From: an uncultured bacterium
GTDB lineage: Bacteria; Hydrogenedentota; Hydrogenedentia; Hydrogenedentales; CAILVY01
Assembly: GCA_937951485.1 (NCBI GenBank)
Contig: CALEDJ010000004.1
Location: 13,582-77,581 of the forward strand
Direction of reading: 5' to 3'
Length of the DNA: 64,000 nucleotides
How positions within the stretch are numbered: the stretch's first letter is position 1; every line of letters starts with the position of its first letter. The position numbers were made by a program, and so were the translations under genes. The notes under the pieces were generated by a model that saw only the letters and a program-made list of their open reading frames with translations, made no database searches and was not told where the DNA came from. Positions 1-57,827 of the stretch are shown one piece after another.

Positions 1-82
1 TCAACTCGCCGCCCAGATAGCGCGACGGGCGTTCCACGCGGGGCAGGATTTCGCGGAGCAGATGCGCTTTCATGGCCATCAT
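1..82 (-). CDS. 5' fragment (runs off window) of probable TIGR03960-type radical SAM protein
   Basis: Not in ORF track. Manual translation from ATG at 82 gives MMAMKAHLLREILPRVERPSRYLGGEL, resembling the 'LPxVExPxRYxGGExN' N-terminus of this family. ATGA overlap with the amidohydrolase stop. Confidence 0.6.
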   Translation of the reverse strand, partial: MMAMKAHLLREILPRVERPSRYLGGEL

Positions 83-1410
83 GACGCCGCCCTTTCACCT
101 CCCCAAGCCGCGATTTTTCCATCATGATCGAACAGTTCCAGGGCGTTGCCGCGCATCAGACGCTGTATCAGTGTTTCCGCCTCGTCCATGGAAATCCACT
201 TTTCTTCCATTAACTCGGTGATTGCCTGTGCAATGCCCTTTCGCGCCACCGCCGCATGGCCGGGCACCAGTTCCACGGGCAGCACATCCGCGCCGAAGCA
301 CAACACTTTGTTCGCGGGAGCCGCCATCAGAAATTCCTTTAGAAAACGCACGCTTGCCTCAGGATTGATGATCCACGCCCAGCACATGTCCACCCAGGTG
401 TTCGGATAATGTTTGGCCAGCGCAATTACCTCGTCCTGATACGGATAATTGATGTGGAAGATGTCAAACCGCGCATCGCGGTGTTCCTGTGCGAGCAGAC
501 ACATGTCGCCGGCGTTGTGGCGCACGCGGTGCAACGGCATGCCGCCGTGTCCCGCGAAATAACCCAGATGCAGTTTGACCGGGAGGCGGTATTCCGTCGC
601 CTTGTGGATACAGTAATGCGCGAGGTGGTCCTGCAGCGCTTTGAGTTCCGCCGGGGAAACGCTTCCAGGCTTTTTGCGGTACCGTGCAAAAATCGGCGCC
701 GCTTCCGCGGCGCTCACCGGCGCGTAGTCCAGTCCCCGCGTGTAGGCGCTCTGGTTTTTTGTGGCGATGGCGCGCGGCCCGTAGGTCTTGAAGCACCAGT
801 CTATCACGCCGTGCCATTCTTTCAGCGTGTCCGCATCTTTCCCTGTCGCGTTTCGCACCGCCGTCAAATCAAGTCCGGAACCCAGCGCCACGGTGCTCAA
901 ATCCTGCATCAGCAGGTCGGGCATGTCGGTCTCCATGAAGACCGGCGTCTGCAGGCTGTTTACATGCGCGTATTCGACGTTGGCGACGTCCCGCAGAATT
1001 GACCGGTAATAGCCCGGCTTGACCGCTGCGCGGAGTTTTTCCGAAATGGCCTCCACATTGCCCGCGTGAATGTCTTCTTCGCCATAGAGCATCCGCACCG
1101 ATGCACGCACATGCCGGCCGTAGCCCGTCAATCGGACACGTTCATAATACGGCGCGATCAGCGCCCATTTGTCCTTCGGTTCCAGGTCATAGCCGAAGAC
1201 CCGCTTCAAGTCGGCCTCCGGCATGCCGGACACGATCAAATCCGAATCCGTGTAATGCGAGAACAGCATCCCGATATCCGAAGCGGGGATACCGCTTCCC
1301 CGTCGCTCCTCCAGCGCCGCCAGGCGCGTGGATTCCTCCCAGAGATGCGTGTGCGTGTCCACGAATGGCGTGTCATTGACCAACTTCCGGATGTCATTGT
1401 TGATATTCAT
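79..1410 (-). CDS. Amidohydrolase family protein (TIM-barrel metallohydrolase)
   Basis: DTHTH metal motif, KLHLG, FHINYP, WVDMCW, FGAD. Confidence 0.85.
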   Translation of the reverse strand: MNINNDIRKLVNDTPFVDTHTHLWEESTRLAALEERRGSGIPASDIGMLFSHYTDSDLIVSGMPEADLKRVFGYDLEPKDKWALIAPYYERVRLTGYGRHVRASVRMLYGEEDIHAGNVEAISEKLRAAVKPGYYRSILRDVANVEYAHVNSLQTPVFMETDMPDLLMQDLSTVALGSGLDLTAVRNATGKDADTLKEWHGVIDWCFKTYGPRAIATKNQSAYTRGLDYAPVSAAEAAPIFARYRKKPGSVSPAELKALQDHLAHYCIHKATEYRLPVKLHLGYFAGHGGMPLHRVRHNAGDMCLLAQEHRDARFDIFHINYPYQDEVIALAKHYPNTWVDMCWAWIINPEASVRFLKEFLMAAPANKVLCFGADVLPVELVPGHAAVARKGIAQAITELMEEKWISMDEAETLIQRLMRGNALELFDHDGKIAAWGGERAAS

Positions 1411-1470
1411 GGTCTTGAGCCTTTTCCACCGGATATTTGGATTCCGGAGAGTCTTCCCTTATTTTGGGAA

Positions 1471-2085
1471 TCATCTCTGGAATATCTTTTGCAATCTGGC
1501 AAAAGCGGGATCAACACACTGTTGAACGCTTGCCTGTTCAATTATTTTGGCGTAAATTGCGCTGGACCGTGGTTTTCTTCGTTCCCGCAGCACCGATTCC
1601 ACCGCCGCTTTGGGGTCGGGCGGCTTTACAGATTCTGTTGGCCACATCTTCTTTTCGTGAAGCCACTGCCGCACCGCTTCGTAACTTGAGTGCCCAAGCG
1701 CCTGCGCGGTATGGATGGAGTCTATCCATATCCAGGCTTCCAATTCCGGGTCTATGGCGATGACATCCGCTTCGCCTTCTCGCCAACCGCTATGACAGAG
1801 TTTTTCCCGCACATCGGACTCGATCCGGGCTGCGCCGGGAGAACCACTCCATTCCGCATCGAGCAGCATCAGTGCATGACGGTGCGTGCTTTGAAAGAGG
1901 CGCAAGAGTTCATGGCCGCGTACATACATGCCCGGATCGGCTTGGTTCGCCTTTATCAGGTCTTGCCTGCAGTCAAAATCAAAAGGGCCGCAATCAAGAG
2001 AGACGTGAACAGAGGCTTTTCGAAAAAATGCGTCCACCACCTTCTCCATATTGGTGTCCGCAACCAAGATGACGCAGTCCCTCAC
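1471..2085 (-). CDS. MAD4-like protein (MADS defence family; TOPRIM/DUF4276-like), last 4 residues cut off by TGA
   Basis: N-terminus MRDCVILVAD, CGPFDFD, DPG, LLDAEW, IDPELEAWIW. GTGA overlap with the upstream ATPase. Reads ...LQKIFQR*FPK* (second stop at 1459-1461). Confidence 0.7.
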   Translation of the reverse strand: MRDCVILVADTNMEKVVDAFFRKASVHVSLDCGPFDFDCRQDLIKANQADPGMYVRGHELLRLFQSTHRHALMLLDAEWSGSPGAARIESDVREKLCHSGWREGEADVIAIDPELEAWIWIDSIHTAQALGHSSYEAVRQWLHEKKMWPTESVKPPDPKAAVESVLRERRKPRSSAIYAKIIEQASVQQCVDPAFARLQKIFQR

Positions 2086-3350
2086 GACAATACCCCGGCG
2101 GCAAATAAATCGCCCAGGTCAATTCCGTGCTGCCAGTCCTTCAATTTGTGATGCGCATCTCCGCGCGCAACGGCTACTGCGCCGTTCTCAGCCTTTCTGA
2201 AGCAAAGCAACTGGTGCGGCTTGGCGCAACGTAGAATCACCGGCGAATGGGTCGCCAGAAAGACCTGTCTGCCATACACGCTTGAGAGGGATTGAAAAAC
2301 CGCCTCGATCGCCTGGGGATGGATGCCGTTTTCCGGCTCTTCCACCAGGATGGCTTGCGGGGTGTCCGGCGCGTAGGCGATCAGACTTAGGGCAATCAAC
2401 CGCAGGGTGCCTTCTGACAACGCCCAGGAAGGCGCTTCCAGTCCGGTATTGAAGCGCACGATAAGATACCGCGCCCGATTCTCCGGTCGTTCACTGGTGG
2501 TGATGGACTCCACGTCGGGCAGGACAGTGCGGATGTGGTCCAGCCACTCGGCGTAACGCGAGGCGTCTTTTTCCTGCAGTGCGTTTACCACCAATGGCAG
2601 ATTGGAGCCGTCCATGCGGAATGCACGGGAGGGTCCGGGAAGACAAGGGCTTCGCATCAGTTCGGCATTCAAGACAAGCCGCTCCACCCCTTCCATCAGA
2701 TACCCCTTGAACCAAGTCGCCGCCGGAAACTTTTTCTCGTCGTCGGGGAGATTGGCCAAAGTCGCCTTCGATGGCCCCAGTCGGAACAAGGTATTCCAGT
2801 CCGATGTTTCCGCCCTGAAATAGTCATTTCCTGTATCCGCCTTTTTGGAGAGTACCTTGCGCCAGCCGCCAGGTGTTTGCGCGCCGGGGGGCCGGCAGAC
2901 TCGGTCCGGCACCGCTGCAGGCATGGGAAAAAGAAAACTGTCTTTTCGCTCGGAAGGCAATGAATGACACAGCCAGAAAGTCTCGTTTTCGAGCCTCAAT
3001 TCAGGCGCGACCTTCAACGTGATTTCGTATCGGCAATATGAATAGCCGTTTGACAGGGATTTTCGGATTTTTTCGGGCAATTCCGCCATCAGGGCGATTT
3101 CGATTGACGCATCGGAGCGCATCCATGACAAATCAAGCGGGTCCACAGCACGCATGGGGACATCGAAACGATGGTCACCCTGAATTGACCGTTCCAAGCC
3201 TACATTGAGAATGTCTCTGAGCAATTTGATCGCATCAAAGAAGGTGCTTTTGCCGCTGCCGTTGGGTCCCACCATGACTTGGAATTCGCTCAGATTGACG
3301 TTGACATAGGAGAGCGCCCGATATCCCTTGATCTCGACTCGGCGCAACAT
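2082..3350 (-). CDS. AAA_21/ABC-type ATPase, MAD3-like
   Basis: Walker A GPNGSGKS, signature LSEGTLR, Walker B/D-loop ILVEEPENGIHP, H-loop ATHSP. ATG at 3350 lies 9 nt after SD AAGGAG (3360-3365), so it is preferred over the track's GTG at 3359. Confidence 0.85.
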   Translation of the reverse strand: MLRRVEIKGYRALSYVNVNLSEFQVMVGPNGSGKSTFFDAIKLLRDILNVGLERSIQGDHRFDVPMRAVDPLDLSWMRSDASIEIALMAELPEKIRKSLSNGYSYCRYEITLKVAPELRLENETFWLCHSLPSERKDSFLFPMPAAVPDRVCRPPGAQTPGGWRKVLSKKADTGNDYFRAETSDWNTLFRLGPSKATLANLPDDEKKFPAATWFKGYLMEGVERLVLNAELMRSPCLPGPSRAFRMDGSNLPLVVNALQEKDASRYAEWLDHIRTVLPDVESITTSERPENRARYLIVRFNTGLEAPSWALSEGTLRLIALSLIAYAPDTPQAILVEEPENGIHPQAIEAVFQSLSSVYGRQVFLATHSPVILRCAKPHQLLCFRKAENGAVAVARGDAHHKLKDWQHGIDLGDLFAAGVLS

Positions 3351-3355
3351 GGCGT

Positions 3356-4624
3356 TCACTCCTTGGATGTGGTCAAACCGGGCTGGGGACAGGCGTCTTG
3401 ACGCTTAGGATACTTCATGGCCACGTACTCCTCAAGCAGTTGCAGGAAGCGGGCGGCGATTTCCGCTTTGTCGCCGGAGAGGGTGTGGCGTTTTTCGCCG
3501 TCAATGAAGACCGGGCAGGCGGGTGCTTCGCCGTTGCCGGGCAGGCTGATGCCGATGTTCGCGGCCCTGGATTCGCCGGGACCGTTCACCACGCAGCCCA
3601 TCACCGCCACCTTGAGCGTCTCGACGCCCTCATGCTGCTGCCGCCAGACGGGCATGCGCGCGCGCACATATTCTTCGGTCTGCTGGGCGAGTTCCTGGAA
3701 GACGGTGCTGGTGGTGCGGCCGCAGCCCGGGCATGCGGTGATGCTCGGCGCGAATTGGCGCAGCCCCAGTGCCTGGAGCAGTTCCTGCGCGGCGCGCACC
3801 TCCTCGCGGCGGTCGCCGCCGGGCGCGGGCGTGAGCGACACGCGGACCGTGTCGCCGATGCCCTCGGCCAGCAGCACTCCCATGGCCGACGCCGACCAGA
3901 CCAGCCCCTTCGCTCCCATGCCCGCCTCGGTCAGGCCAAGGTGCAGCGGCTGGTGCGTCTGTGTGGACAATTTCCGGTACAGGTCAATCAGGTGCGTCGG
4001 CACGCTGGTCTTGCAGGACACCACGATCTGATTTTCGGTCAGGCCGCATTGCAGCGCCAGTTCCACCGATTGCAGCGCGGAGAGAATCATGCACTCGTTG
4101 GTGATTTCTTCGGAAGTTTTTCCCAATCCGCGCGCGGTGTTTTCATGCATTTTTTCCATGACCAGTTCCGGGTTGAGCGATCCCACGTTCACGCCGATTC
4201 GTACTGGTTTTCCCTGGTCCCTGGCGACGGAGCAGATGGTGGCGAACTGCGCATCACGCTGTTGTCCCTTGCCGACATTGCCGGGATTGATCCGGTATTT
4301 GTCGAGCGCCCGGGCGCAGTGCGGGTATTTTGTCAACAGGCGGTGTCCATTGTAGTGAAAATCGCCGATGATGGGTGTCTCGTGGCCGGCGTCGCGCACG
4401 CGCGCGACGATGTCCGGCACACACTCCGCCGCGCGCGGCGTGTTCACGGTGATGCGCACCAGTTCGGAACCCGCCTCCGCCAGCGCGATAATCTGCTGTG
4501 CCGTTGCCTCGGTGTCTTCGGTGTCGGTATTGGTCATTGATTGCACCACGACCGGTGCGCCGCCGCCGATTTGCACCCTGCCGACCATCACCGGGAAGGT
4601 CGTATGTCGTTGAATGAAAGCCAT
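3356..4624 (-). CDS. ispG: 4-hydroxy-3-methylbut-2-enyl diphosphate synthase
   Basis: VVVQSMTNTDT, IGDFHYN, RINPGNVG, HLGLTEAG, CPGCGRT, VAVMGCVVNGPGES. Start re-assigned to MAFIQ at 4624. Confidence 0.97.
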   Translation of the reverse strand: MAFIQRHTTFPVMVGRVQIGGGAPVVVQSMTNTDTEDTEATAQQIIALAEAGSELVRITVNTPRAAECVPDIVARVRDAGHETPIIGDFHYNGHRLLTKYPHCARALDKYRINPGNVGKGQQRDAQFATICSVARDQGKPVRIGVNVGSLNPELVMEKMHENTARGLGKTSEEITNECMILSALQSVELALQCGLTENQIVVSCKTSVPTHLIDLYRKLSTQTHQPLHLGLTEAGMGAKGLVWSASAMGVLLAEGIGDTVRVSLTPAPGGDRREEVRAAQELLQALGLRQFAPSITACPGCGRTTSTVFQELAQQTEEYVRARMPVWRQQHEGVETLKVAVMGCVVNGPGESRAANIGISLPGNGEAPACPVFIDGEKRHTLSGDKAEIAARFLQLLEEYVAMKYPKRQDACPQPGLTTSKE

Positions 4625-9970: not shown

Positions 9971-10298
9971 GACGGCAAGGACAGCAAGGACGGCAAGGAC
10001 GCATGGAAGGAACAAAAGAAGCGACGACGAGAATATGGCTCTGCCTGGCGTTCTTTTTTTAACTTTTCTCCCCCGTTACACCGCTCCTGCGATGTAACGC
10101 ACCACCGCGACGCTCCTGCGTCGCGGGATGCGGCAACGCGTTTCTTTGGATTGCGTTGTTGCCTGGCGCAGAGCACCCCTCGTTGCACCGCAGGAACGGT
10201 GCAACGAGGGGATTTCACCTGTTTCCCGCATCGTCTATGTTGTCCCTTTTTTCCTTGCTGTCCTTGTTGTCCCTGCTGTCCCTTTTGTCCTTTTTGTT
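9971..10298. repeat. Composite intergenic element: inverted 9-mer arrays enclosing three hairpins
   Basis: GAC(A/G)GCAAG x3 at 9971-9997; reverse-complement 9-mers x5 at 10254-10298; hairpins at 10075-10098, 10104-10125 and 10176-10211. Confidence 0.75.
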
Positions 10299-11349: not shown

Positions 11350-13818
11350 TTACCGACCCCGAACGGCTCCGCCTGACGCACCACCCCGCACGCTCGGCGC
11401 GCTGCGGCCAACCGATGGCGCACTGATGGTCGGCGCGCTGCGGCCAACCGATGGCGCACTGATGGTCGGCGCGCTGCGGCCAACCGATGGCGCACTGATG
11501 CCTGGCGCGCTGCGGCCAACCGATGGCGCACTGATGCCTGGCGTGCTGCGGCCAACCGATGGCGCACTGATGCCTGGCGCGCTGCGGCCAACCGATGGCG
11601 CATTGATGACTGGTGTGCCTCGGCTGACTGACGGCGCGCTTTGTCGCACGCTTGGCGCGGGCGCACTGACGCTGGGCGCGCTGTGGGGGTCGCTGGGTGC
11701 TGGCGCGCTTTGTCGTACGCTTGGCGCGGGCGCACTGACGGCGGGCGCCCCGCGCGATGGCGCTGGATTCATGCTCGGCACACTTGGACGGCTGATTGCC
11801 GGCGGGCTTGCCGGTCGCGGGGTTGTCTGCGCCGGGCGTGAAGAAGGAGTCGGCTGATACGCTGCGCCGCGGCCCCGGATGCCCGGGGTGGCCTCAATAT
11901 CCCGCGAAGTGGGCGGCACTGTGGTGCGCGGCGCAGGCGAAAACGACCGCCCCTCAGTCGGCGTACCGCGCAAGGACGGCGCCTCGGTTCGCGGGGTGAC
12001 CGGTGCGCCGCGCTCCGGGCGGTTTTCCTGCTCCGCAGGGCCTGCAGGCGTCGCCGAACCGCGCGGCTGCGTTTGCGTGCGTATCGTCCCGCCGCCCGCA
12101 GCGTCCCCTCTTGTCGGGGCGGAAGCCGGTGCGCCGCTTGGCTCTGGCATTATCGGGCGCGCTTCCGAAGGAACCGCGCTTCCGCGTTTGGGACGCTCTT
12201 CCATTGACGCGCCCGAACGCGTCGGCGCGTCCGCCGGGGCCGCTCCTGACCGGACGCCGCGGCCCGCATCGCCGCGTGGCGTCGCCTCGCTTGCCGTCAT
12301 GGTGCGCCGCTCGATGCCCGGACCTAACTGCGGGTCGGCGCCCCTGATTTTCGGCGCTGCGCGCAGGGCATCCGCGGTGGTGCTTTCCATGCGCACATTA
12401 CGAACCTGGGCCATGCGACCCTGGGGGCTTAAGTCCGTCTTAAGGCCGCGCCCGCCAGTGCTCGCGACATGCGTGAAGCGGTCCCGCCCCAGCGATGATT
12501 CCAGCCGCTGCGCGCGGTGTTGTGCGGTCAGCGCTGTTTCATCCAGCGCAGCGGGGCCGCGAATGGCGCGGGGCGGATTGTAATTCCGGACCCGGTCCGG
12601 CGGCAGGGTGTAGGGGGTCCGCACGCGGTTGGGCGCGTTGATGTTGATGTTGATGTTCCAGATATTCACTTCGTGCGGGCGCTGGCGCACGTATGTGGCA
12701 ATGACAGGGGTGAGCGGGTAAACATATGCCGGACCGCGATAGAAGGCGCCGGCGTAAACATAGGAACTTACGCTGATGTCGAACATTACGCCACCCACGG
12801 TGAAGACTGCCGAATCCCGCACCACGATGGGACGGTGATAAAAGTCCACCGGCGCCCAGATGAAATAGTCGCCGCAGCGGATGGTGGCCGCCCACGCGGG
12901 ACTCCAGACGGGGTCATAAGCCCATATCCAGCCATAGGAGACGTGATAGCGCCACCGGCCATAGTGCGTCGTGATGTAGGAGAAGGGGTAACGGCCCACC
13001 CAGACATAGCCCGTGACCGGCACGTAACTCCAGTAGCCGTAGCGATAGGGCACATAATCCACCACCACCGTGGGCCGCCAGTAATGGCGATTGTCCACAT
13101 AGACCCATTCACCGTAGGGCGCCAAATCCACCACTCCGAGCGTTTGCGGCGCAAAACTCACCGATGTGGGTGCGCTCTTGAACCCTTCGGCCAGCAATTT
13201 CGCGCGTTCGCGGTTCCATACATCAAAGGCGTCCTCCACCGTGCGATCAAAAAACATGGGCGTAGACGGCAGCATCCCCGGATCAACCCAGACCCGCTGC
13301 CCGGTATTCACATACACCGCGCCGCCCGCATCGGTTCGCACGATAACCCGGCCCCATCTCACGCTCACGGTCGTTGCGCCCTGGTCCACCACATCCAGCC
13401 GCACCGCCGTGTCGCGTTCCACCTCCACCATGCAGGCCGGCGTCGCGAACACGAAGTCACCGCTGCTGCGGTTCATGCGCTGCACTTGGAATGAGCCATA
13501 CCAGCCCCGGACCAGCCCGCTGGGCGGCAGCCCGGCGATTTCCGCCCTGCTTCCGTCCGCCATCCGCAGGAACGTGCCGCCGGAAAACTCGATTTCCGCC
13601 GTCCCCCCCTGGTCCACCCACAGCGTATCGCCCTGAAGCACCATCGTGTTCAATGGCGCCTGACTCCATTCGGCATCATCCACGCCCCGGATCAGCGTGC
13701 CGCCGGCGTCAAAACTGACCCGCGCGTGCAACGGATGGTCCGAAGCCCAAGCCAATGGCGCAAGTCCAATCAGAAAAAGCACATAGGCTGTCTTTGCGAT
13801 GCTGCGTTGCGTGTTCAT
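11350..13818 (-). CDS. Secreted FecR-like/DUF6600-type protein with long Pro/Arg/Ser-rich tail
   Basis: Signal peptide; FecR-like segment (NTMVLQGDTLWVDQGGTAEIEF); LAPYGEW, PY..GYW, HYGRW, P.WSPAW motifs; start 13818 after GGAGGA. Confidence 0.75.
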   Translation of the reverse strand: MNTQRSIAKTAYVLFLIGLAPLAWASDHPLHARVSFDAGGTLIRGVDDAEWSQAPLNTMVLQGDTLWVDQGGTAEIEFSGGTFLRMADGSRAEIAGLPPSGLVRGWYGSFQVQRMNRSSGDFVFATPACMVEVERDTAVRLDVVDQGATTVSVRWGRVIVRTDAGGAVYVNTGQRVWVDPGMLPSTPMFFDRTVEDAFDVWNRERAKLLAEGFKSAPTSVSFAPQTLGVVDLAPYGEWVYVDNRHYWRPTVVVDYVPYRYGYWSYVPVTGYVWVGRYPFSYITTHYGRWRYHVSYGWIWAYDPVWSPAWAATIRCGDYFIWAPVDFYHRPIVVRDSAVFTVGGVMFDISVSSYVYAGAFYRGPAYVYPLTPVIATYVRQRPHEVNIWNINININAPNRVRTPYTLPPDRVRNYNPPRAIRGPAALDETALTAQHRAQRLESSLGRDRFTHVASTGGRGLKTDLSPQGRMAQVRNVRMESTTADALRAAPKIRGADPQLGPGIERRTMTASEATPRGDAGRGVRSGAAPADAPTRSGASMEERPKRGSAVPSEARPIMPEPSGAPASAPTRGDAAGGGTIRTQTQPRGSATPAGPAEQENRPERGAPVTPRTEAPSLRGTPTEGRSFSPAPRTTVPPTSRDIEATPGIRGRGAAYQPTPSSRPAQTTPRPASPPAISRPSVPSMNPAPSRGAPAVSAPAPSVRQSAPAPSDPHSAPSVSAPAPSVRQSAPSVSRGTPVINAPSVGRSAPGISAPSVGRSTPGISAPSVGRSAPGISAPSVGRSAPTISAPSVGRSAPTISAPSVGRSAPSVRGGASGGAVRGR
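11393..11608 (-). repeat. Coding tandem repeat, 6 x 36 bp (xSAPSVGRSAPx)
   Basis: Six near-identical 36-bp units visible in the DNA; boundaries approximate. Confidence 0.9.
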
Positions 13819-14119
13819 GCTCACATCCTCCATCACACAGGCGCTCCAAGTCGTGTGTTCTGCTTACCTTGACGAATTTCCGTGCAGTTGATTCACATCT
13901 GAAGGATGGCGGTGCCTGTGTTTTTTCCTGTTTGTCGCGGCAGTCGCCTTGATGTTCCGGGTCGGCCTTGCCTATAGTCATATCAGAACACGCGGAGACG
14001 CCACATGTGCGGCATCGGCGCTTTCATCACATGCAGGGCGGTATTGAAAAAGTCGGCCGGTTGCGGAAGGCCGCATCCGGCACGTGCCAACGAATCGCAA
14101 CCTGGAGAAAGACACAATC

Positions 14120-41871: not shown

Positions 41872-41948
41872 GGGCGATTAGCTCAGTTGGTTAGAGCGCC
41901 GTCTTCACACGGCGGAGGTCACTGGTTCGAGCCCAGTATCGCCCACCA
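41872..41948 (+). tRNA. tRNA-Val (anticodon CAC), CCA encoded
   Basis: Acceptor stem GGGCGAT/ATCGCCC, D-arm AGCTCAGTTGGTTAGAGC, anticodon stem CCGTC/GGCGG with loop TTCACAC, T-loop GGTTCGAG. Confidence 0.96.
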
Positions 41949-51235: not shown

Positions 51236-53458
51236 ATGGTGAAACGGGACAGACGCGGCGCGGCGGCGGCTGAACGCTACGGCGGCGCGCCGGAAAAAGA
51301 AATGCGCAAGCGGATGCGGATATTGCTTGTCGGCTTCCTGGTGGTATTCTCCATTGTCGCGGCGCGTTTGTGTCAACTGCATTTGAATCCCCGCCTGGAA
51401 TTGACCGCCGAGGAACAATTCCACATCGGCCAGGTGGAATTGCGCGAACCGCGCGGCGAAATCTTTGATCGCAACGGCCTCCTGCTGGCGACGGACCGCC
51501 TTGCCCCCTCGCTGTGGGCAGACCCCCGCAAGGTGTCGGACCCGCACCGCCTGGCGGCGCTGATTCGGGAACGGATCGGCGCCGTCCCTGAGGATTTGGA
51601 AGAACGTCTGGGCAAATGCGACGCATCGGGCAATCCGCGGAAATTTGTCTGGGTCAAACGGTGGATCAGTGATGTGCCCGAATCGGTGTTTACCTCACTG
51701 GTGGAGGACAGCCACGGCGCGCTGGCCATTCAGCACGAGCCGGTGCGATATTACCCTCATCGCGACACTGCGGCGCATCTGCTGGGCTTTGTGAACCGCT
51801 CCGGCGAAGCCTCCGAAGGATTGGAACTGCTCTTTGACAATCACCTGCGGAGTGTGCCGGGACGCTACACCGCCCGCAAGGATGTGAACCGGCGGCTCCT
51901 GGATTCGCTCACCCTCGAATACACGCCGCCGAAGGGGGGCGACGCCGTGCAGTTGACGCTGGATACGGAAATCCAGCATGCCCTGGAGCGCGCGCTCGAC
52001 GCGCGTATCGAAGAGACCAGGGCGTCTCGCGGGATGGGCCTCATTATGAATCCGTATTCCGGGGCCATTCTGGCGCTTGCGACCCGGCCCGCCTTCGACC
52101 CCAACCAATACGACCAGTTTCCGGCGGAATTGCGCAAGAACAGCGCATTAATAGACGTGTTCGAGCCGGGTTCGGCGTTCAAGATTGTGGCGGCGGCCGC
52201 GGCGCTGGAACATCGCCTCATCACGACGGACACGTTGATTGACTGTGAGAACGGATCATTCAATCCCTACGGCCACCGTATCCGTGATGTGAAAAAGATG
52301 GGCGTGGTGCCTTTTTCCCGCGCCTTCGAGCAATCCAGCAACATCGCCATCATCAAAGTCGGGGCGATGCTGGGTCCGGAGCGCATGGAGGAATGGATAG
52401 TTCGCTTCGGTTTCGGCGCGCGCACGTGTCCGGATTTTCAGGTGGAAAGCGCCGGGATTTTCCGCCCGCGCAGGCAGTGGTCACGGCTGACCATGGGGTC
52501 TTTGCCGATGGGCCAGGAACTCGCTGTGACCATGCCGCAACTCGCCCGCGCGTTTGCGGTTATCGCCAATGGCGGCTATCTGGTGGAACCGTATTTCGTC
52601 GAGCGCGCCGTATCTCGCACGGGCGAGATCACCTATCAGCGGCGGCCCCCGGCGCGCCAGCGTATTCTCTCGCCGGAGACCGTGGACACCATGCGTGATC
52701 TGTGCCATCAGGTCGTGGCGCACGGTACGGGGCGGCATGCCGCCATTCCGGAATATCGGGCCGGCGGCAAGACCGGCACGGCACAGATGGCGCGCAAGGA
52801 CGGCCGGGGCTATGACCCGGACCGGGTGACGGCGATCTTCGCGGGCTTTGCGCCTGTGATGAATCCCCAAATTGTAGCGGTCTTCGTAATCCAGGAGCCG
52901 ATGGTGCGCCCGCATTACGGCGGCGTCATCTGCGGGCCTCTGTTCAAGAGCGTTGTGCGTGACGCGCTGATCCGCCTGCATGTGCCGGAGGATCCCATGG
53001 AAAAGGCTCCCGTCAAGAAGGACGGGAAGAAGTCCGGCCTGACAATGGCGTCCTCCAGCACCCCGCATGGCGCTCCGAACGACACGGGAGCACATGCAAA
53101 CGATGTGATCTGGGAAGACGCGGATACAGTGGCGGAAAGGGCGGAACTGGAAGCGTTCGCCCAGTCGCTTGACGCCATGATGCAGCCTTTGGACACGCTG
53201 CGTCTGGTTGCAGCGCCCGCAGATGCAACCAATTTCTCCAGCGCGGTATTACCCGATTTTACCGGGATGACCAAGCGCGAGGCGCTGGATGCGCTGCGGC
53301 GGCTCGGTGTCGCGTGGGACCAACAAGGCAGCGGTTGGGTGGTTGCCCAAGACCCGCCGCCGGGAACCCCGGTACCTGAAGTGGCCTATTGCGCGCTTGA
53401 ATTCTCAAACGTTCGGACGGAAATCCTTGAGAAAGATGACAAGAAAAGAACTTCTTGA
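51236..53458 (+). CDS. ftsI: Class B penicillin-binding protein with PASTA domain
   Basis: RGEIFDRNG, EPGSAFK (SxxK), SSN, KTGT, terminal PASTA-like PDFTG....EA. Confidence 0.93.
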   Translation: MVKRDRRGAAAAERYGGAPEKEMRKRMRILLVGFLVVFSIVAARLCQLHLNPRLELTAEEQFHIGQVELREPRGEIFDRNGLLLATDRLAPSLWADPRKVSDPHRLAALIRERIGAVPEDLEERLGKCDASGNPRKFVWVKRWISDVPESVFTSLVEDSHGALAIQHEPVRYYPHRDTAAHLLGFVNRSGEASEGLELLFDNHLRSVPGRYTARKDVNRRLLDSLTLEYTPPKGGDAVQLTLDTEIQHALERALDARIEETRASRGMGLIMNPYSGAILALATRPAFDPNQYDQFPAELRKNSALIDVFEPGSAFKIVAAAAALEHRLITTDTLIDCENGSFNPYGHRIRDVKKMGVVPFSRAFEQSSNIAIIKVGAMLGPERMEEWIVRFGFGARTCPDFQVESAGIFRPRRQWSRLTMGSLPMGQELAVTMPQLARAFAVIANGGYLVEPYFVERAVSRTGEITYQRRPPARQRILSPETVDTMRDLCHQVVAHGTGRHAAIPEYRAGGKTGTAQMARKDGRGYDPDRVTAIFAGFAPVMNPQIVAVFVIQEPMVRPHYGGVICGPLFKSVVRDALIRLHVPEDPMEKAPVKKDGKKSGLTMASSSTPHGAPNDTGAHANDVIWEDADTVAERAELEAFAQSLDAMMQPLDTLRLVAAPADATNFSSAVLPDFTGMTKREALDALRRLGVAWDQQGSGWVVAQDPPPGTPVPEVAYCALEFSNVRTEILEKDDKKRTS

Positions 53459-54902
53459 TCTGATTGGATGCCCCCAGGATGGCGGCCGGGAGTTTACAAT
53501 CACCGCTGTGACAGAGGACTCCCGGCGTGTGTGCCGGGGCGCGCTTTTTGTGGCTGTACGCGGGGCGCATGCGGATGGGCACGACCATGCCGAAAAAGCG
53601 GTCAAAGCGGGCGCAACCGCAATTCTCGGCGACCGGGAGGGCATAAAGGAACTACATGGGGTCCCTTATGTTCGTTTTGCAACGCCGCGCCGCGCGGCGG
53701 GCATTATCGCGCATGCGCTGTCGGGAAACCCCACGCGTGACATGACAGTCATCGGGATCACAGGCACGAACGGCAAGTCGAGCACCGCGTATCTGACCCA
53801 GGCGGTGCTTCAGCAGGCAGGGCATCCCACGGCGAATTTCGGCACCCTGGGCTATGAGATCGCCGGCGCGATGCACAACGCGCCCCATACCACGCCGTTC
53901 GGCGAGGAACTCGCCTTGCTTTTCATGCAGGCGCGCGACGCCGGGCATACCCATGTGGTCATGGAGGTCAGTTCGCACGCATTGGACCAGGACCGCGTGG
54001 CGGGCATTCACTTCACGGCGGGCGCATTCACCAATCTCAGCCAGGATCATCTGGATTATCACCAGGACATGGAACACTACCTTCGTGCGAAACTCAGGTT
54101 TTTTGAACTTGTCGAAGGCGCGGGTTGTTTCACCGTGGTGAACGCGGATGATCCGGTTGCGCCTCATTTTGTTGACGCCTCACGGGGAAGGTGCATCACT
54201 TTCGGGAATGCGGGGGACTGCCGCGCCGCGCACATCCGACCGGAAGTCGCCTCCACGCGCTTCACGTTGCACACGCCCTGGGGCAGCACTCCCGTAACAC
54301 TGCGGCTGGCAGGCCGCCACAATGTGTGGAACGCGCTGTGCGCCGCGGCGATCACGGGCGGGCTGGGCATCCCTCTGGATGCCATCGCAGAGGGACTGGG
54401 CGCCCTGACGCGCGTGCCCGGACGTTTTGAGGCGGTGGACGCCGGGCAGGATTTTCACGTCATCGTGGATTACGCACACACGGAAGACGGTCTGCGCAAT
54501 GTGCTGGAGGCGGCGCGCGCACTTTGCCGGGGCCGCATCATCACCGTATTTGGCTGTGGCGGCGACCGCGACAAAGGCAAACGCCCCAAGATGGGCGCGA
54601 CGGCTGCGCGTCTCTCGGATTTCTGCGTGGTCACCAGCGACAACCCACGCACGGAAGACCCGCATCGCATCCTGCTTGACATTGAAGTCGGCCTGCAGCG
54701 GGAAGGCAAGCGCAAGAACGAGGACTATCTGGTGATTGAAAGCCGGGAAGAGGCCATTCGCGCGGCCATTGGCATGGCGCGTGCGGGTGACCTGGTGATG
54801 ATCGCGGGCAAAGGCCATGAAACCTATCAGATCGCAGGAGACCAGCGGATTCCCTTCGATGACCGGGAAGCGGCGCGCGCAATTCTGACGGAACGGCGGT
54901 GA
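53436..54902 (+). CDS. murE: UDP-MurNAc-dipeptide--amino acid ligase
   Basis: GITGTNGKSS, HTTP, MEVSSH, FTNLSQDHLD, VDYAH, FGCGGDRD, DNPR (meso-DAP-type motif), AGKGHE. Confidence 0.97.
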   Translation: MTRKELLDLIGCPQDGGREFTITAVTEDSRRVCRGALFVAVRGAHADGHDHAEKAVKAGATAILGDREGIKELHGVPYVRFATPRRAAGIIAHALSGNPTRDMTVIGITGTNGKSSTAYLTQAVLQQAGHPTANFGTLGYEIAGAMHNAPHTTPFGEELALLFMQARDAGHTHVVMEVSSHALDQDRVAGIHFTAGAFTNLSQDHLDYHQDMEHYLRAKLRFFELVEGAGCFTVVNADDPVAPHFVDASRGRCITFGNAGDCRAAHIRPEVASTRFTLHTPWGSTPVTLRLAGRHNVWNALCAAAITGGLGIPLDAIAEGLGALTRVPGRFEAVDAGQDFHVIVDYAHTEDGLRNVLEAARALCRGRIITVFGCGGDRDKGKRPKMGATAARLSDFCVVTSDNPRTEDPHRILLDIEVGLQREGKRKNEDYLVIESREEAIRAAIGMARAGDLVMIAGKGHETYQIAGDQRIPFDDREAARAILTERR

Positions 54903-56266
54903 GCATGGGATGGCGCTGCACATTGCGGGAACTGGCGGACGCCATCGGCGCGGAATTCCCTGACTGTGCGGATCCGGAGACAGCGTTCAGCGGCGTGTCC
55001 ACCGACACGCGGACCCTGCGTCCAGGCGAGGTTTTCTTTGCGTTGCGCGGAGATCGCTTCGACGGCAACCGTTTCGTGGACGAGGCGATCCAGAAAGGCG
55101 CGGCGGCGGCGGTCTGCATGGAAAGGGGCGGATCGGGGCCGCGCCTGCTTGTGGATGATGCGTTGGGGGCATTGCAGCGTTTCGCTGCCTGGCATCGGGC
55201 GCAGTGGCATATCCCGGTCATCGCCATCACGGGTTCCTGCGGCAAGACTACGACCAAGGACTTGATCGCGGCCTTGCTGTCCTCAAAATATGCCGTGGTG
55301 AAAACCGAAGGCAACCTGAACAACGAGATTGGCTGTCCGCTTTCCCTGTTGCGCCTGGATGATCACGCGCAGGCGGCCGTGATTGAGATGGGCGCCAATC
55401 ATATGGGGGAGATCGCGTCGCTGTGCCGCATCGCGCGGCCCACGGAATCGGCAGTGACGATGGTGGCGCCCGCCCACTTGGAGGGCTTTGGGAGTATCGA
55501 GGGCGTGGCCCGCGCCAAGGGCGAAATCGCCGAAGGGCTTCCGGCCGATGGATGCTTTTACGTCAATGCCGATGATCCCTGGTGCCGATGGATCGGCGAC
55601 CGGTTCCCCGGCGAGAAGGTTTTTTTCGGGCGCGCCGGCGATGTCGTGTTGAAACGTTGTGCGCCGGACGCTTCCGGTGAGATGGTACTGGATGTGGCGC
55701 CGGTGGGCGCGTTGCGGTTGCCGTTGCCCGCACCGACCCATGCGGCCAATGCACTGTTGGCAATTGCCGTGGGATTGCGACACGGCATTGCGGAATTTGA
55801 AGGGCCGTTGCGCGAGGCGTGCCGCGCATCGGTGCGTTTCCGCACGCTGCGCGTGGGACCGTTGCAGGTTCTTGACGACAGTTATAACGCCAATCCGGCC
55901 AGCATGGCGGCGGCGCTCGAGGCGCTGGCGTTGCGGGCGCGTGGCGGCAGGCGCATTGCGGCGCTCGGCGCGATGCTGGAATTGGGCGGGGAAGCCGCCT
56001 TGTGGCACCGACAGGTCGGCGAGACCGCCGCGCGCCAAGGGGTGACGCATCTCTTTGCACGGGGGCCGAACGCCCGTGATATGATTGAAGGCGCGCGCGC
56101 CGCCGGCGTTCCCCATGCGGAATGCATCGAAGAACACGACGCCATCGCCCGGGTTGTGCGCGAACTTGCGGAACCGGGTGATTCCCTTCTGGTCAAAGGG
56201 TCGCGCGGCATGCGCATGGAGCGCGTCATCGAGTGTCTGCGCGCCCTTTACGGAGAATCAACATGA
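54899..56266 (+). CDS. murF: UDP-MurNAc-tripeptide--D-Ala-D-Ala ligase
   Basis: AITGSCGKTTTK, GNLNNEIG, EMGANH.GEI, DDSYNANP.SM, G.MLELG, KGSRGM. Confidence 0.96.
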   Translation: MSMGWRCTLRELADAIGAEFPDCADPETAFSGVSTDTRTLRPGEVFFALRGDRFDGNRFVDEAIQKGAAAAVCMERGGSGPRLLVDDALGALQRFAAWHRAQWHIPVIAITGSCGKTTTKDLIAALLSSKYAVVKTEGNLNNEIGCPLSLLRLDDHAQAAVIEMGANHMGEIASLCRIARPTESAVTMVAPAHLEGFGSIEGVARAKGEIAEGLPADGCFYVNADDPWCRWIGDRFPGEKVFFGRAGDVVLKRCAPDASGEMVLDVAPVGALRLPLPAPTHAANALLAIAVGLRHGIAEFEGPLREACRASVRFRTLRVGPLQVLDDSYNANPASMAAALEALALRARGGRRIAALGAMLELGGEAALWHRQVGETAARQGVTHLFARGPNARDMIEGARAAGVPHAECIEEHDAIARVVRELAEPGDSLLVKGSRGMRMERVIECLRALYGEST

Positions 56267-56327
56267 CGCGGCGGCATTATTACATCCTTCGCAGAAGCCA
56301 TGCGGCGCGCCGTCGAAAGGACAATCC

Positions 56328-57812
56328 ATGCTGTATTACCTCGCGCTGACATTGAAACCATATATCGGCGCGATGAACGTACTCACCTATCACACCGTGC
56401 GCGCCGGCGGCGCGGCGATTACAGGATTCCTGTTCTGTCTGCTTTTCGGCCCCGCCATCATCCGCGTTCTGCGCGAGTTCAAGATCGGCCAGATCATCAA
56501 GAAGGACCACGTGGCCGACTTGCATGCCCTGCACAAAAGCAAGGCGGGCACGCCCACCATGGGCGGGACGATGATTCTGCTCTCGACGGTCTTGTCGCTG
56601 CTCTTGTGGGGTCGGTTGAACAACCGGCTCTTATGGTTGGCGATCATGGTGCTGCTGCTGCTCGGTGCGGTGGGATTCATTGACGATTACATCAAACTGA
56701 AGCGCAAACACAACGACGGACTCAGCGCGCGCGCCAAGTTCGCCGGTCAGATTATCACCGGACTGATCCTTGGCCTGTATCTGATCGGCAACCCAATCAC
56801 CGTAAGCGCCACCTACCTCTATCCCCGCGATGTCACGGACTGGCAGGCGCTCTCGAAAGCGTTCCTGACGGCAATTCAATCCGATGCCCCGTCGCCGGTG
56901 CGCGCGATTTGGCTGCACATGCCGCTTGAGGCGCGGCAGAAAACGGCCGAGGCCGCCCCGCACGCGGTGGAATCGCAGGAAGCGCGCCGGGAATTGCTGC
57001 AGGGGTTGAACAGCGTGCTGGGCCAACGCCGGCTTTATGACCCCAATCTGTGGCCGGACGAGATGCTGACGCCGGAAGCCCGGGCGCTGATCGCGCGAGA
57101 CCCGCAAACCCTGGGCGATCTGGAGGTGGTTCGTCTGGACCGCCTGCTGGTTGAGGCGGCGCTGCCGGAGGCCGTCGCCCACAGCGTGCCCAACCTCCAC
57201 ACCAAGGTGGGTATTCCCGGTTTCAAGGATACCTACCTCCCCCTGGGGCCGATCTACGTGTTGTTTGTTATCCTTATCATCGTGGCGGTGTCCAATGCGG
57301 TGAACCTCACCGACGGATTGGATGGCCTGGCGGGGGGCGCGTCGGTGATCTCCATCCTGACCTATGCAGGCATCGCCTACGTGGTGAGCCGCGCCGACTG
57401 GTCGCAGTATCTTTTTGTCACCTATGTGCCCGAAGCGAGCGAATTGTTCGTTTTTGGCGGGGTGCTGCTGGGTGCGGGCTTGGGTTTTCTGTGGTTCAAT
57501 GCGCATCCCGCGGAGATCTTCATGGGCGACACGGGATCGCTTTCACTGGGCGGTGCGATCGCGGCGCTGGCCATTCTCACCAAGCAGGAATTGCTGCTCC
57601 CGCTGGTGGCGGGGCTTTTCGCCTTGGAAGCCGCCAGTGTAGTGATTCAGGTGGCTTCTTTCAAACTGACGGGCAAACGGGTATTTCGCATGGCCCCCCT
57701 TCATCATCATTTTGAGTTGATGGGCTGGTCGGAAACCAAGGTGACCATGCGCTTCTGGATTATCGCGCTGCTTCTGGCGCTCATGAGTTTCAGCACGCTT
57801 AAACTCAGATGA
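56328..57812 (+). CDS. mraY: Phospho-N-acetylmuramoyl-pentapeptide transferase with ~134-aa insertion
   Basis: K.GTPTMGG, GFIDDY.K, SNAVNLTDGLDGLA, FMGDTGSL.LGG, FRMAPLHHHFE; start 56328 after AAAGGA. Confidence 0.96.
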   Translation: MLYYLALTLKPYIGAMNVLTYHTVRAGGAAITGFLFCLLFGPAIIRVLREFKIGQIIKKDHVADLHALHKSKAGTPTMGGTMILLSTVLSLLLWGRLNNRLLWLAIMVLLLLGAVGFIDDYIKLKRKHNDGLSARAKFAGQIITGLILGLYLIGNPITVSATYLYPRDVTDWQALSKAFLTAIQSDAPSPVRAIWLHMPLEARQKTAEAAPHAVESQEARRELLQGLNSVLGQRRLYDPNLWPDEMLTPEARALIARDPQTLGDLEVVRLDRLLVEAALPEAVAHSVPNLHTKVGIPGFKDTYLPLGPIYVLFVILIIVAVSNAVNLTDGLDGLAGGASVISILTYAGIAYVVSRADWSQYLFVTYVPEASELFVFGGVLLGAGLGFLWFNAHPAEIFMGDTGSLSLGGAIAALAILTKQELLLPLVAGLFALEAASVVIQVASFKLTGKRVFRMAPLHHHFELMGWSETKVTMRFWIIALLLALMSFSTLKLR

Positions 57813-57827
57813 AACAGGCGGGGACAG

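What the first reader, a model, noticed from the sequence alone, without database searches (positions are those of the whole stretch)
1459..3350. Stand-alone mad3-mad4-like ATPase/effector pair: candidate minimal two-gene defence module
Seen: an intact ABC-type ATPase and a MAD4-like gene overlap by 4 nt and sit between ispG and an amidohydrolase. Sampled lines are more AT-rich than ispG (25/60 GC at 3181-3240 versus 49/60 at 3781-3840). No methyltransferase, specificity subunit, kinase or other mad gene flanks them. Knowledge: MAD3 and MAD4 are components of the 8-gene Methylation-Associated Defence System, and ATPase-sensor plus TOPRIM-like effector pairs (PARIS AriA/AriB, OLD-like) work as two-gene anti-phage systems. 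Inference: mad3-mad4 may be an autonomous sensor-effector unit that MADS co-opted. The ATPase SD lies in ispG's last codons, so the cassette would be expressed from a housekeeping operon.
Basis: partly seen in the sequence, partly recalled or inferred. Interest (0 to 1): 0.75.

Follow-up and report, generated by a model that had tools for sequence, protein, structure and literature searches.

The report
Stand-alone MAD3–MAD4 ATPase/effector gene cassette
Two overlapping genes, usually known as parts of the eight-gene MADS anti-phage system, sit here alone as a 1.9-kb insertion between two housekeeping genes, and they belong to a separate lineage of such lone pairs, so this is probably a self-contained sensor-plus-effector module whose effector is slightly truncated in this genome.

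Summary
On the minus strand lie ispG (3356-4624), a MAD3-family ABC ATPase (2082-3350), a MAD4-family protein (1471-2085, GTGA overlap with mad3) and an amidohydrolase (79-1410). Both proteins pass NCBIfam's curated cut-offs. No other MADS gene was found in the 64-kb window or in 10 kb beyond its left edge.

A relative whose ispG is 88% identical has ispG directly followed by the amidohydrolase. The pair is therefore a ~1.9-kb, low-GC insertion that also rewrote ispG's last codons and supplies the AAGGAG for mad3.

Among 80 related genomic loci, 48 are full MADS operons and at least 17 are intact lone pairs. In the ATPase tree the window falls in a 31-member group with no MADS-embedded member (bootstrap 94/100). 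These pairs share no third gene and mostly sit among housekeeping genes.

The ATPase model resembles OLD and PtuA ATPases. The MAD4 model is confident but matches no solved TOPRIM.

This copy has TGA at an invariant Trp, four codons before the normal end; a 99.97%-identical contig has TGG.

The autonomy reading is supported. A defence function remains an inference. The architecture is already known (PARIS, HEC-01, "MADS3-4").

The parts
3356..3407 (-). Remodelled 3' end of ispG. It encodes a 16-codon tail (KRQDACPQPGLTTSKE) and a TGA stop that have no counterpart in the relative L088. It contains the AAGGAG Shine-Dalgarno (3359-3364) for mad3. This is the left edge of the insertion.
   Evidence: Nucleotide homology to L088 stops at window 3408. 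Sequence read.
2082..3350 (-). MAD3-family OLD-like ABC ATPase of 422 aa with an ATG start at 3350. Proposed role: sensor and regulator.
   Evidence: NCBIfam MAD3 477.6 bits against a cut-off of 420. PADLOC HEC-01A 1.9e-46, mad3 6e-33, AriA 1e-29. AlphaFold pLDDT 90.6. Foldseek top hit is Thermus OLD 6p74 at E 7e-12, followed by PtuA and SMC/Rad50 heads.
1471..2085 (-). MAD4-family small alpha/beta protein of 204 aa with a GTG start that overlaps the mad3 stop (GTGA). Proposed role: effector. It ends at a TGA (1471-1473) that replaces an invariant Trp.
   Evidence: NCBIfam MAD4 242 bits against a cut-off of 160. PADLOC mad4 1.9e-12, HEC-01B 2e-4. Invariant residues D10, D42, D50, D76, E116 and the K154-P155 / P158-K159 motif are present. 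Model pLDDT 92.6.
1459..1470 (-). Codons cut off the original MAD4 end (FPK plus TAA). In L001 the frame reads ...FQRWFPK*.
   Evidence: TGG in L001. (W205 and F206 invariant).
1411..1458 (-). 48-nt spacer between the original mad4 stop and the amidohydrolase start. This is the right edge of the insertion.
   Evidence: Homology to L088 resumes at window 1380. No flanking repeats longer than 7 nt.
3356..4624 (-). ispG (GcpE), the upstream housekeeping gene that probably supplies transcription.
   Evidence: Pfam GcpE 3.6e-109 and NCBIfam 427 bits.
79..1410 (-). Amidohydro_2 gene, the downstream flank. In relatives it directly follows ispG.
   Evidence: In L088, ispG is followed after 51 nt by the amidohydrolase and then a radical SAM gene.

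Best explanation
What it is. This is a horizontally acquired, self-contained two-gene cassette of the MAD3/MAD4 families. It belongs to a lineage that lives on its own, outside MADS operons. It inserted between ispG and an amidohydrolase in a probable Hydrogenedentota chromosome. It is most likely transcribed by read-through from ispG. The two genes appear translationally coupled: the mad3 SD lies in ispG's last codons, and mad3 and mad4 overlap by GTGA.

Proposed mechanism (inferred by analogy, not shown). The OLD/PtuA-like ABC ATPase MAD3 acts as an ATP-dependent sensor that holds or licenses the small acidic-site protein MAD4. On a trigger, such as an infection cue or loss of a cellular guard, MAD4 is released or activated and cuts nucleic acid, stopping the cell or the invader. 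This is how PARIS AriA/AriB works, and it is what was proposed for HEC-01. MADS would then use the same pair as its toxic executor arm under methylation control.

This copy. The effector lacks its invariant C-terminal Trp-Phe because of a TGG-to-TGA change. It may therefore be weakened or inactive.

Shown here: family membership, absence of other MADS genes nearby, insertion polymorphism, a separate lone-pair lineage, the ATPase fold and the nonsense codon.

Inferred: complex formation, nuclease activity, the trigger and the defence phenotype.
For: - Family membership.
- No MAD1, 2, 5, 6 or 7 in the window or in L001.
- Empty site in L088 (ispG 88% aa, 81% nt): homology to the window breaks at 3408 and 1380.
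- Low GC and GC3.
- Of 80 loci from species genomes, 48 are MADS operons in the order MAD1-2-3-4-5-6-7. At least 17 are lone pairs with 3 kb or more on both sides, and both proteins are full length in them.
- The NJ tree of MAD3 gives a 31-taxon split containing the window and no MADS-embedded locus, with bootstrap 94/100. The concatenated tree gives 76/100.
- The window's MAD3 is 45% identical to that group and 35% identical to MADS-embedded MAD3.
- The lone pairs share no third gene.
- The closest MAD3 relatives are also lone pairs between housekeeping genes, for example purB-pair-pyrF.
- ATPase fold: OLD 6p74 at E 7e-12, then PtuA. By sequence: OLD, PtuA, AriA, GajA.
- MAD4 has conserved acidic residues at strand ends.
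- Lone-pair MAD4s hit HEC-01B in register at up to 1.3e-8.
- Literature: mad5 can be deleted only if mad2 or mad3 is also deleted, and MAD3/4 are accessory in the MADS detection model (bioRxiv 10.1101/2023.03.30.534895). DUF4276/Mad4 is assigned to the Toprim superfamily (PMC12065111). 'MADS3-4' is listed with ABC ATPase plus TOPRIM systems (PMC11464382).
Against: - No functional data exist for any lone MAD3-MAD4 pair.
- The closest tested analogue, HEC-01, gave no protection against the phages tried in E. coli (bioRxiv 10.1101/2024.01.29.577857).
- Most lone pairs sit among housekeeping genes, not in defence islands.
- The family is almost absent from plasmids (2 distant hits in 72,556 records) and from phage genomes. 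PARIS, by contrast, is often carried by mobile elements.
- The MAD4 model has no significant match to any solved TOPRIM.
- Pfam DUF4276 does not hit the window protein.
- In MADS both mad3 and mad4 are needed for the system's defence, so they need not act alone there.
- The MAD4-only tree does not resolve the split (5/100).
- This copy carries a nonsense codon at an invariant residue.
- Only the 80 loci most similar to the window's MAD4, out of 484, were examined.
Confidence: 0.6

Rival explanations
1. The pair has a non-defence cellular role. It would be an ABC ATPase plus small nuclease-like protein working in DNA repair, RNA processing or cell-cycle control, and only its relatives were recruited into MADS.
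For: - The neighbours of lone pairs are mostly housekeeping genes, and the pairs are often co-directional and tightly packed with them.
- The family is absent from phages and nearly absent from plasmids.
- HEC-01 showed no defence (bioRxiv 10.1101/2024.01.29.577857).
- An archaeal OLD-family ATPase acts in cell-cycle progression (abstract of PMC12796447, seen).
Against: - The pair is present or absent between close relatives at the same site.
- Its composition is atypical for the host.
- Only 484 of 185,579 species genomes carry a relative, and these are scattered over many phyla.
- About a fifth of the lone-pair loci have restriction-modification or GmrSD neighbours.
Confidence: 0.15
2. The pair is a selfish toxin-antitoxin-like addiction cassette with MAD4 as toxin and MAD3 as its keeper. 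It persists by post-segregational killing and gives the host no defence benefit.
For: - The two genes overlap and carry no partner.
- The ATPase matches Pfam AAA_21, which is described as 'putative AbiEii toxin, Type IV TA system'.
- AriA is deposited in the PDB as 'AriA antitoxin'.
- A nonsense mutation in the putative toxin is the kind of change that relieves toxicity.
Against: - The family is rare on plasmids, where addiction modules thrive.
- Addiction and abortive infection are not exclusive, so this rival overlaps the main explanation.
- No toxicity data exist.
Confidence: 0.12
3. The pair is a remnant of a decayed eight-gene MADS operon.
For: - Five lone pairs (L011, L051, L052, L057, L073) sit inside the MADS clade, so loss of the other genes does happen.
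- Broken copies exist elsewhere: MAD4 is split in L095, and L028 has a short MAD3.
Against: - The window's ATPase groups with the lone-pair lineage at 94/100.
- The insertion is exactly the two genes at an otherwise empty site.
- There is no trace of other MADS genes in 74 kb.
Confidence: 0.04
4. In this particular genome the cassette is functionally dead or attenuated, whatever the family does, because MAD4 is cut at the invariant Trp205.
For: - TGA in the window against TGG in a 99.97%-identical contig.
- W205 and F206 are invariant in 28 homologues and conserved in at least 90% of sequences in both clades.
Against: - Only four residues are lost, and all candidate catalytic residues remain.
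- The single base could be an assembly error or a minor population variant.
- The ATPase is untouched.
Confidence: 0.35

Closest known systems
MADS (Methylation-Associated Defence System, mad1-8; Maestri et al., bioRxiv 10.1101/2023.03.30.534895 / Cell Host Microbe 2024)
   Same: Both proteins pass the NCBIfam MAD3 and MAD4 equivalog cut-offs. The gene order (mad3 then mad4) and the overlapping stop/start are the same as in MADS operons.
   Different: There is no MAD1, MAD2 methyltransferase, MAD5 specificity subunit, MAD6 kinase or MAD7. MAD6-8 are mandatory in the published detection model. The window's ATPase belongs to a separate lineage, 35% identical to MADS-embedded MAD3. Without a methyltransferase there can be no methylation-based discrimination of self from non-self.
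HEC-01 (Hma-embedded candidate 01: ABC ATPase + TOPRIM-like protein; Payne et al., bioRxiv 10.1101/2024.01.29.577857; PADLOC-DB)
   Same: It is also a two-gene ABC ATPase plus small (~215 aa) effector. The window ATPase's best PADLOC hit is HEC-01A (1.9e-46). Lone-pair MAD4s align in register to HEC-01B at 1.3e-8 to 3e-4.
   Different: The small protein is closer to mad4 (1.9e-12) than to HEC-01B (2e-4). The pair is not embedded in an Hma system or any other defence system here. HEC-01 itself showed no defence in the published assay.
PARIS (AriA ABC ATPase + AriB DUF4435 TOPRIM nuclease; PMC11464382)
   Same: It is a two-gene sensor ATPase plus separate small effector. AriA is detectable by sequence (PADLOC 1e-29; PDB 8ux9 5.6e-8). 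It serves as the mechanistic template for the proposal made here.
   Different: The effector is not DUF4435: no Pfam or PADLOC AriB hit was found. The ATPase (422 aa) has a beta-rich insert, not AriA's coiled-coil inserts. The pair is chromosomal among housekeeping genes and not on satellites or prophages.
[quoted passage not shown]
   Same: These give the closest solved folds for the ATPase: Thermus OLD 6p74 at E 7e-12, then PtuA. By sequence: 6p74 at 7e-14, PtuA at 1.8e-12, GajA at 2e-6.
   Different: In OLD and GajA the TOPRIM is fused to the ATPase, and PtuA pairs with an HNH nuclease. Here the partner is a separate MAD4-family protein with no significant structural match.
RloA/RloB and DUF4276 pairs (Toprim superfamily per PMC12065111)
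   Same: The best, non-significant, structural neighbour of the MAD4 model is a phage RloB-like protein of the same length (E 0.024, TM 0.36). DUF4276 is the commonest weak Pfam hit among MAD4 homologues (6 of 49).
   Different: All these matches fall below the significance thresholds. The window protein itself has no Pfam hit.

Membership tests
MADS (complete system) | MAD6, MAD7 and MAD8 present within about 10 genes (mandatory in the published MacSyFinder model) | tested here: not met
   HMMs built from 39-44 operon copies of MAD6 and MAD7 hit nothing in the window or L001. MAD8 had no model of its own here, but no large unexplained co-directional gene follows the pair.
MADS (complete system) | MAD2 methyltransferase and MAD5 specificity subunit adjacent to mad3-mad4 | tested here: not met
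   There are no hits. The flanking genes are ispG and an amidohydrolase.
MAD3 protein family (NCBIfam NF047739) | Whole-protein score at or above the curated cut-off of 420 bits | tested here: met
   477.6 bits, residues 4-424 against model positions 1-427.
MAD4 protein family (NCBIfam NF047734) | Whole-protein score at or above the curated cut-off of 160 bits | tested here: met
   242 bits, residues 2-203 against model positions 1-202 of 206. The last four model positions are missing because of the TGA.
HEC-01 (PADLOC candidate system) | Adjacent HEC-01A ATPase and HEC-01B TOPRIM-like protein by PADLOC HMMs | tested here: inconclusive
   HEC-01A hits at 1.9e-46. HEC-01B hits only at 2e-4 and is outscored by mad4 at 1.9e-12.
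PARIS | AriB effector with a DUF4435 TOPRIM domain next to AriA | tested here: not met
   The small protein has no DUF4435 or AriB hit. Only the ATPase shows AriA similarity.
OLD-family ABC ATPase (fold level) | ABC ATPase head with Walker A, signature motif, Walker B and H-loop, and OLD-like structure | tested here: met
   The motifs are invariant in 43 homologues. Foldseek gives 6p74 at E 7e-12. hmmsearch against PDB sequences gives 6p74 at 7e-14.
Pfam DUF4276 (PF14103) | Match at the Pfam gathering threshold | tested here: not met
   The window protein has no hit at E up to 1. Six of 49 homologues hit weakly, with best E 0.0028.
TOPRIM fold / nuclease | Four-stranded alpha/beta core with conserved Glu after strand 1 and DxD after strand 3, and structural similarity to solved TOPRIMs | tested here: inconclusive
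   The model (pLDDT 92.6) has strand-helix repeats. Invariant D10 follows strand 1, D76 ends strand 3, and E114/E116 follow strand 4. Foldseek found no PDB match at E 0.001 or better. The best BFVD hit is RloB-like at E 0.024. The Toprim assignment rests on PMC12065111.
Anti-phage defence system (functional class) | Reduces phage infection when expressed | not testable with these tools
   This needs an experiment.

The most novel reading that the evidence does not exclude
Lone MAD3-MAD4 pairs would be a distinct, widespread two-gene immune or abortive module of environmental bacteria that current defence finders do not call. It would insert seamlessly into housekeeping operons and borrow their transcription. 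It would also be the ancestral unit from which MADS took its toxic executor arm. If so, the 'restriction' step of MADS, still unknown, would be carried out by an OLD-like ATPase licensing MAD4.
Probability: 0.35. Interest if true: 0.65.

Novelty: new variant of a known kind. Interest (0 to 1): 0.48.

Why it matters
How MADS restricts DNA is not known (PMC12904381 lists its restriction mechanism as unknown). If MAD3-MAD4 works alone, it gives a two-protein handle on the executor step of an eight-gene system.

It would also add a family to the ABC-ATPase plus small-nuclease group (PARIS, HEC-01, OLD-like).

There is a practical consequence for annotation. NCBIfam equivalog models will label such lone pairs 'methylation-associated defense system' proteins in genomes that have no MADS. 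PADLOC-type and MacSyFinder-type rules will report no system at all.

The placement inside housekeeping operons, far from defence islands, also means that guilt-by-association searches would miss this lineage.

Tried and rejected
- Sequence profile of MAD4 against PDB sequences: only a spurious G-protein hit at E 0.96.
- Foldseek of the MAD4 model against the PDB and BFVD: nothing at E 0.001 or better. The TOPRIM claim could not be confirmed.
The 204-aa window form was modelled instead.
- Exact-sequence look-up of the 204-aa MAD4: failed. Gene callers had used the internal ATG at codon 13. The homologue alignment shows that the GTG start is the right one.
One contig is long (L092), and it too carries a lone pair.
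- Search for a conserved third gene among lone pairs: only antisense shadow ORFs were shared.
- Search for target-site duplications or terminal repeats at the insertion edges: only chance 7-mers.
- Promoter and terminator scan: nothing on the gene strand between ispG and the amidohydrolase. Counts did not exceed those in shuffles.
- Plasmid hit H1 (Geoalkalibacter): a different ATPase with no MAD4 partner.
- Outgroup rooting of the MAD3 tree: the outgroup was not monophyletic in 49 of 100 replicates. The 'MADS derived from lone pairs' direction is therefore only suggestive.
- MADS-remnant reading: rejected on the phylogeny and the empty-site evidence.
Full report
**What is there**

Four co-directional genes lie on the minus strand at the left end of the window:
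- ispG, 3356-4624.
- A 422-aa ABC-type ATPase, 2082-3350.
- A 204-aa protein, 1471-2085.
- An Amidohydro_2 gene, 79-1410.

The ATPase scores 477.6 bits on NCBIfam's MAD3 equivalog model (cut-off 420). The small protein scores 242 bits on the MAD4 model (cut-off 160). Both matches are end to end.

In PADLOC-DB the ATPase's best hits are HEC-01A (1.9e-46), then mad3 (6e-33) and AriA (1e-29). The small protein hits mad4 (1.9e-12) and, weakly, HEC-01B (2e-4). Pfam sees AAA_21/AAA_15 in the ATPase and nothing in the small protein.

The mad4 GTG start overlaps the mad3 TGA stop as GTGA at 2082-2085. The mad3 ATG lies 5 nt after ispG's stop. AAGGAG, which forms ispG's last two sense codons (3359-3364), sits 8 nt upstream of that ATG. 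No promoter-like or terminator-like site lies on this strand between ispG and the amidohydrolase, although such scans are weak evidence.

The automatic gene call for MAD4 starts at an internal ATG (192 aa, P0001). The homologue alignment shows the GTG start is the right one, because the conserved MRDCV...AD motif, including invariant D10, lies upstream of that ATG.

**The stop codon**

A contig from another sample (L001, Logan ERR9287890) carries the same locus. It differs at one base in 3605: TGG where the window has TGA at 1471-1473. The intact protein ends ...FQRWFPK. The Trp and Phe are invariant in 28 homologues, and conserved in at least 90% of sequences in both clades defined below.

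This genome's MAD4 therefore lacks an invariant C-terminal motif, although every candidate catalytic residue remains. Whether this reflects relief of toxicity, drift or an assembly error cannot be decided here.

**Is the rest of MADS nearby?**

I fetched 80 loci encoding MAD4 relatives from species-representative genomes. In total, 484 of 185,579 genomes had a relative. I clustered their ORFs and named the recurrent neighbours with NCBIfam. The canonical operon is MAD1, MAD2 methyltransferase, MAD3, MAD4, MAD5 specificity subunit, MAD6 kinase and MAD7.

HMMs built from these clusters found only MAD3 (496 bits) and MAD4 (276 bits) in the six-frame translation of the whole 64-kb window and of L001. 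L001 adds 10 kb beyond the window's left edge. That stretch holds a radical SAM gene, a GH42-like gene, a ComF-like gene, ArsP, a HAD hydrolase and LptF/G.

The rest of the window is ordinary chromosome: a dcw cell-wall cluster, a mechanosensitive channel, a PAS/GAF histidine kinase and one tRNA-Val. The remainder of the genome could not be searched.

**The pair is an insertion**

The nearest named ispG homologues are from Candidatus Hydrogenedentes/-ota, at 72-78% identity.

A contig whose ispG is 88% identical in protein and 81% in DNA (L088) has ispG, a 51-nt gap, the same 443-aa amidohydrolase and the same 863-aa radical SAM gene, with no mad genes. A second contig, L089, shows the same junction.

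Nucleotide homology to the window stops at 3408 and resumes at 1380. About 1.93 kb is therefore extra in the window. The extra DNA consists of:
- a new 16-codon tail and stop for ispG, which carries the SD;
- mad3;
- mad4;
- a 48-nt spacer.

The pair's GC is 0.553 against a window median of 0.60, the 1.4th percentile of same-sized windows. GC3 is 0.57 and 0.66 against 0.72-0.79 in the neighbours. No flanking repeats or recombinase gene were found.

**Lone pairs are a lineage, not debris**

Of the 80 loci:
- 48 carry other MADS genes.
- 17 have only the pair, with at least 3 kb on both sides and full-length scores for both proteins.
- 15 are too short to call, though none of them shows an adjacent MAD2 or MAD5.

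A neighbour-joining tree of concatenated MAD3+MAD4 separates a group containing the window, in which no locus has MADS genes, from a group containing all MADS operons.

With three more close relatives added, the MAD3 tree gives a 31-taxon split free of MADS-embedded loci with bootstrap 94/100. The concatenated tree gives 76/100 for that exact split. It gives 100/100 for some MADS-free split of 15 or more taxa that includes the window. MAD4 alone is too short to resolve the split (5/100).

The window's MAD3 is 45% identical on average to the lone-pair group and 35% to MADS-embedded MAD3. Its MAD4 is about equally distant from both groups, at 40% and 43%. The ATPase has diverged with context while the small protein has not.

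Five lone pairs (L011, L051, L052, L057, L073) sit inside the MADS clade and look like secondary losses.

Rooting with distant ATPases places the MADS clade in a nested position in every replicate where the outgroup held together. That was only 51 of 100 replicates, so the direction 'MADS recruited a lone pair' is suggestive only.

**Context of lone pairs**

No third gene is shared among the lone pairs.

The three genes on either side of 22 lone pairs are mostly housekeeping: ThiC, IspH/LytB, isocitrate/isopropylmalate dehydrogenase, SAM synthetase and topoisomerase. A minority are defence-type genes: type II/III methyltransferases, GmrSD and ResIII.

The closest MAD3 relatives in metagenomes (53-59% identity) show the same picture. 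One pair lies between purB and pyrF. Another lies in a glyS ... YgjP, pair, glyoxalase ... ksgA-pdxA-surA-lptD region. A third lies between a peptidase gene and a glycosyltransferase gene. One further long metagenome contig (L092) also carries a lone pair.

The family is nearly absent from plasmids (2 distant hits in 72,556 records) and from phage genomes (23-25% identity only).

**Structures**

The MAD3 model (pLDDT 90.6) matches the Thermus OLD nuclease ATPase (6p74, E 7e-12). Next come PtuA of Septu and retron systems, then SMC/Rad50/RecN heads. The sequence profile search agrees: 6p74 at 7e-14, PtuA at 1.8e-12, AriA at 5.6e-8 and GajA at 2e-6.

The MAD4 model is confident (pLDDT 92.6). It has an alpha/beta core with invariant acidic residues at the strand ends: D10, D76 and E114/E116.

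However, Foldseek finds no PDB match at E 0.001 or better. Its best viral match is an RloB-like protein of equal length at E 0.024. Pfam DUF4276 hits only 6 of 49 homologues, with best E 0.0028. Lone-pair MAD4s align in register to PADLOC HEC-01B at 1.3e-8 to 3e-4, better than a canonical MADS MAD4 does (0.008).

The published assignment of DUF4276/Mad4 to the Toprim superfamily (PMC12065111) is therefore neither confirmed nor contradicted here.

**What is already known**

The MADS preprint treats MAD6-8 as mandatory and MAD3/4 as accessory, 'not reliably detected in all systems'. It reports that mad5 could be deleted only together with mad2 or mad3, which points to MAD3 as part of the toxic arm (bioRxiv 10.1101/2023.03.30.534895).

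HEC-01 is a published two-gene ABC-ATPase plus TOPRIM candidate. It gave no protection against the phages tried (bioRxiv 10.1101/2024.01.29.577857).

The PARIS paper lists 'MADS3-4' among ABC ATPase plus TOPRIM systems (PMC11464382).

A 2026 survey describes OLD-ABC plus nuclease dyads as back-up effectors recruited by BREX-like systems (PMC12839542).

I found no paper describing a separate lone-pair MAD3-MAD4 lineage, but the library is incomplete.

**Verdict**

The autonomy of the pair is well supported by four lines of evidence: absence of partners, the empty site in a relative, the number and intactness of lone pairs, and a separate ATPase lineage.

The mechanism I commit to is a PARIS/HEC-01-like ATPase-licensed effector that stops the cell or an invader. 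It is an analogy with moderate probability.

The main rival is a cellular, non-defence role. It is suggested by the housekeeping contexts and the absence from mobile elements.

This particular copy may be impaired by the nonsense codon.

It is a new variant of a known kind, of moderate interest.

Noticed in passing
window 9971-10271: The intergenic region is bracketed by a 20-nt inverted repeat (GACGGCAAGGACAGCAAGGA / TCCTTGCTGTCCTTGTTGTC, 90% complementary, 261 nt apart). It has purine-rich short repeats on one side and pyrimidine-rich ones on the other. A perfect 15-bp hairpin lies at 10176-10211. There is no Rfam family at gathering score. It could be a structured RNA or a small repeat element.
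   Followed up: partly
window 1471-2085 (codon 13, ATG): Public gene calls for MAD4 (192 aa here, 196 aa in L001) start at an internal ATG. They drop the first strand and the invariant Asp10. The GTG at 2085 is the start supported by all homologues.
   Followed up: yes
L011, L051, L052, L057, L073: These five lone MAD3-MAD4 pairs sit phylogenetically inside the MADS-embedded clade. They are apparent secondary losses of the other MADS genes and are distinct from the main lone-pair lineage.
   Followed up: partly
L095 2119-2810; L028 9372-10004 and 16165-17778: Decayed relatives exist. In L095, MAD4 is split over two frames. In L028 (Nodosilinea) there is a short MAD3 fragment with MAD6/MAD7 remnants, one of them on the opposite strand.
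   Followed up: no
L018 11987-16195 (and cluster c8 in 39 loci): The 'MAD6' gene in these operons is about 1400 aa, but the NCBIfam MAD6 model (612 positions) covers only the N-terminal part. The protein also matches Ser/Thr kinase models and BREX PglW (6e-63), which underlines the kinship between MADS and BREX.
   Followed up: no
window 11400-12000: The GC content of this stretch rises to 0.71-0.72. It lies inside an 828-aa ORF (11350-13836, minus strand) that carries a DUF6600 domain. This is well above the window mean of 0.60.
   Followed up: no
window 51236-60000; 41872-41948: A cell-division and cell-wall (dcw) cluster (PBP transpeptidase, Mur ligases, MraY-like glycosyltransferase) and a single tRNA-Val(CAC) are present. 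This supports an ordinary chromosomal setting with no defence island in view.
   Followed up: partly
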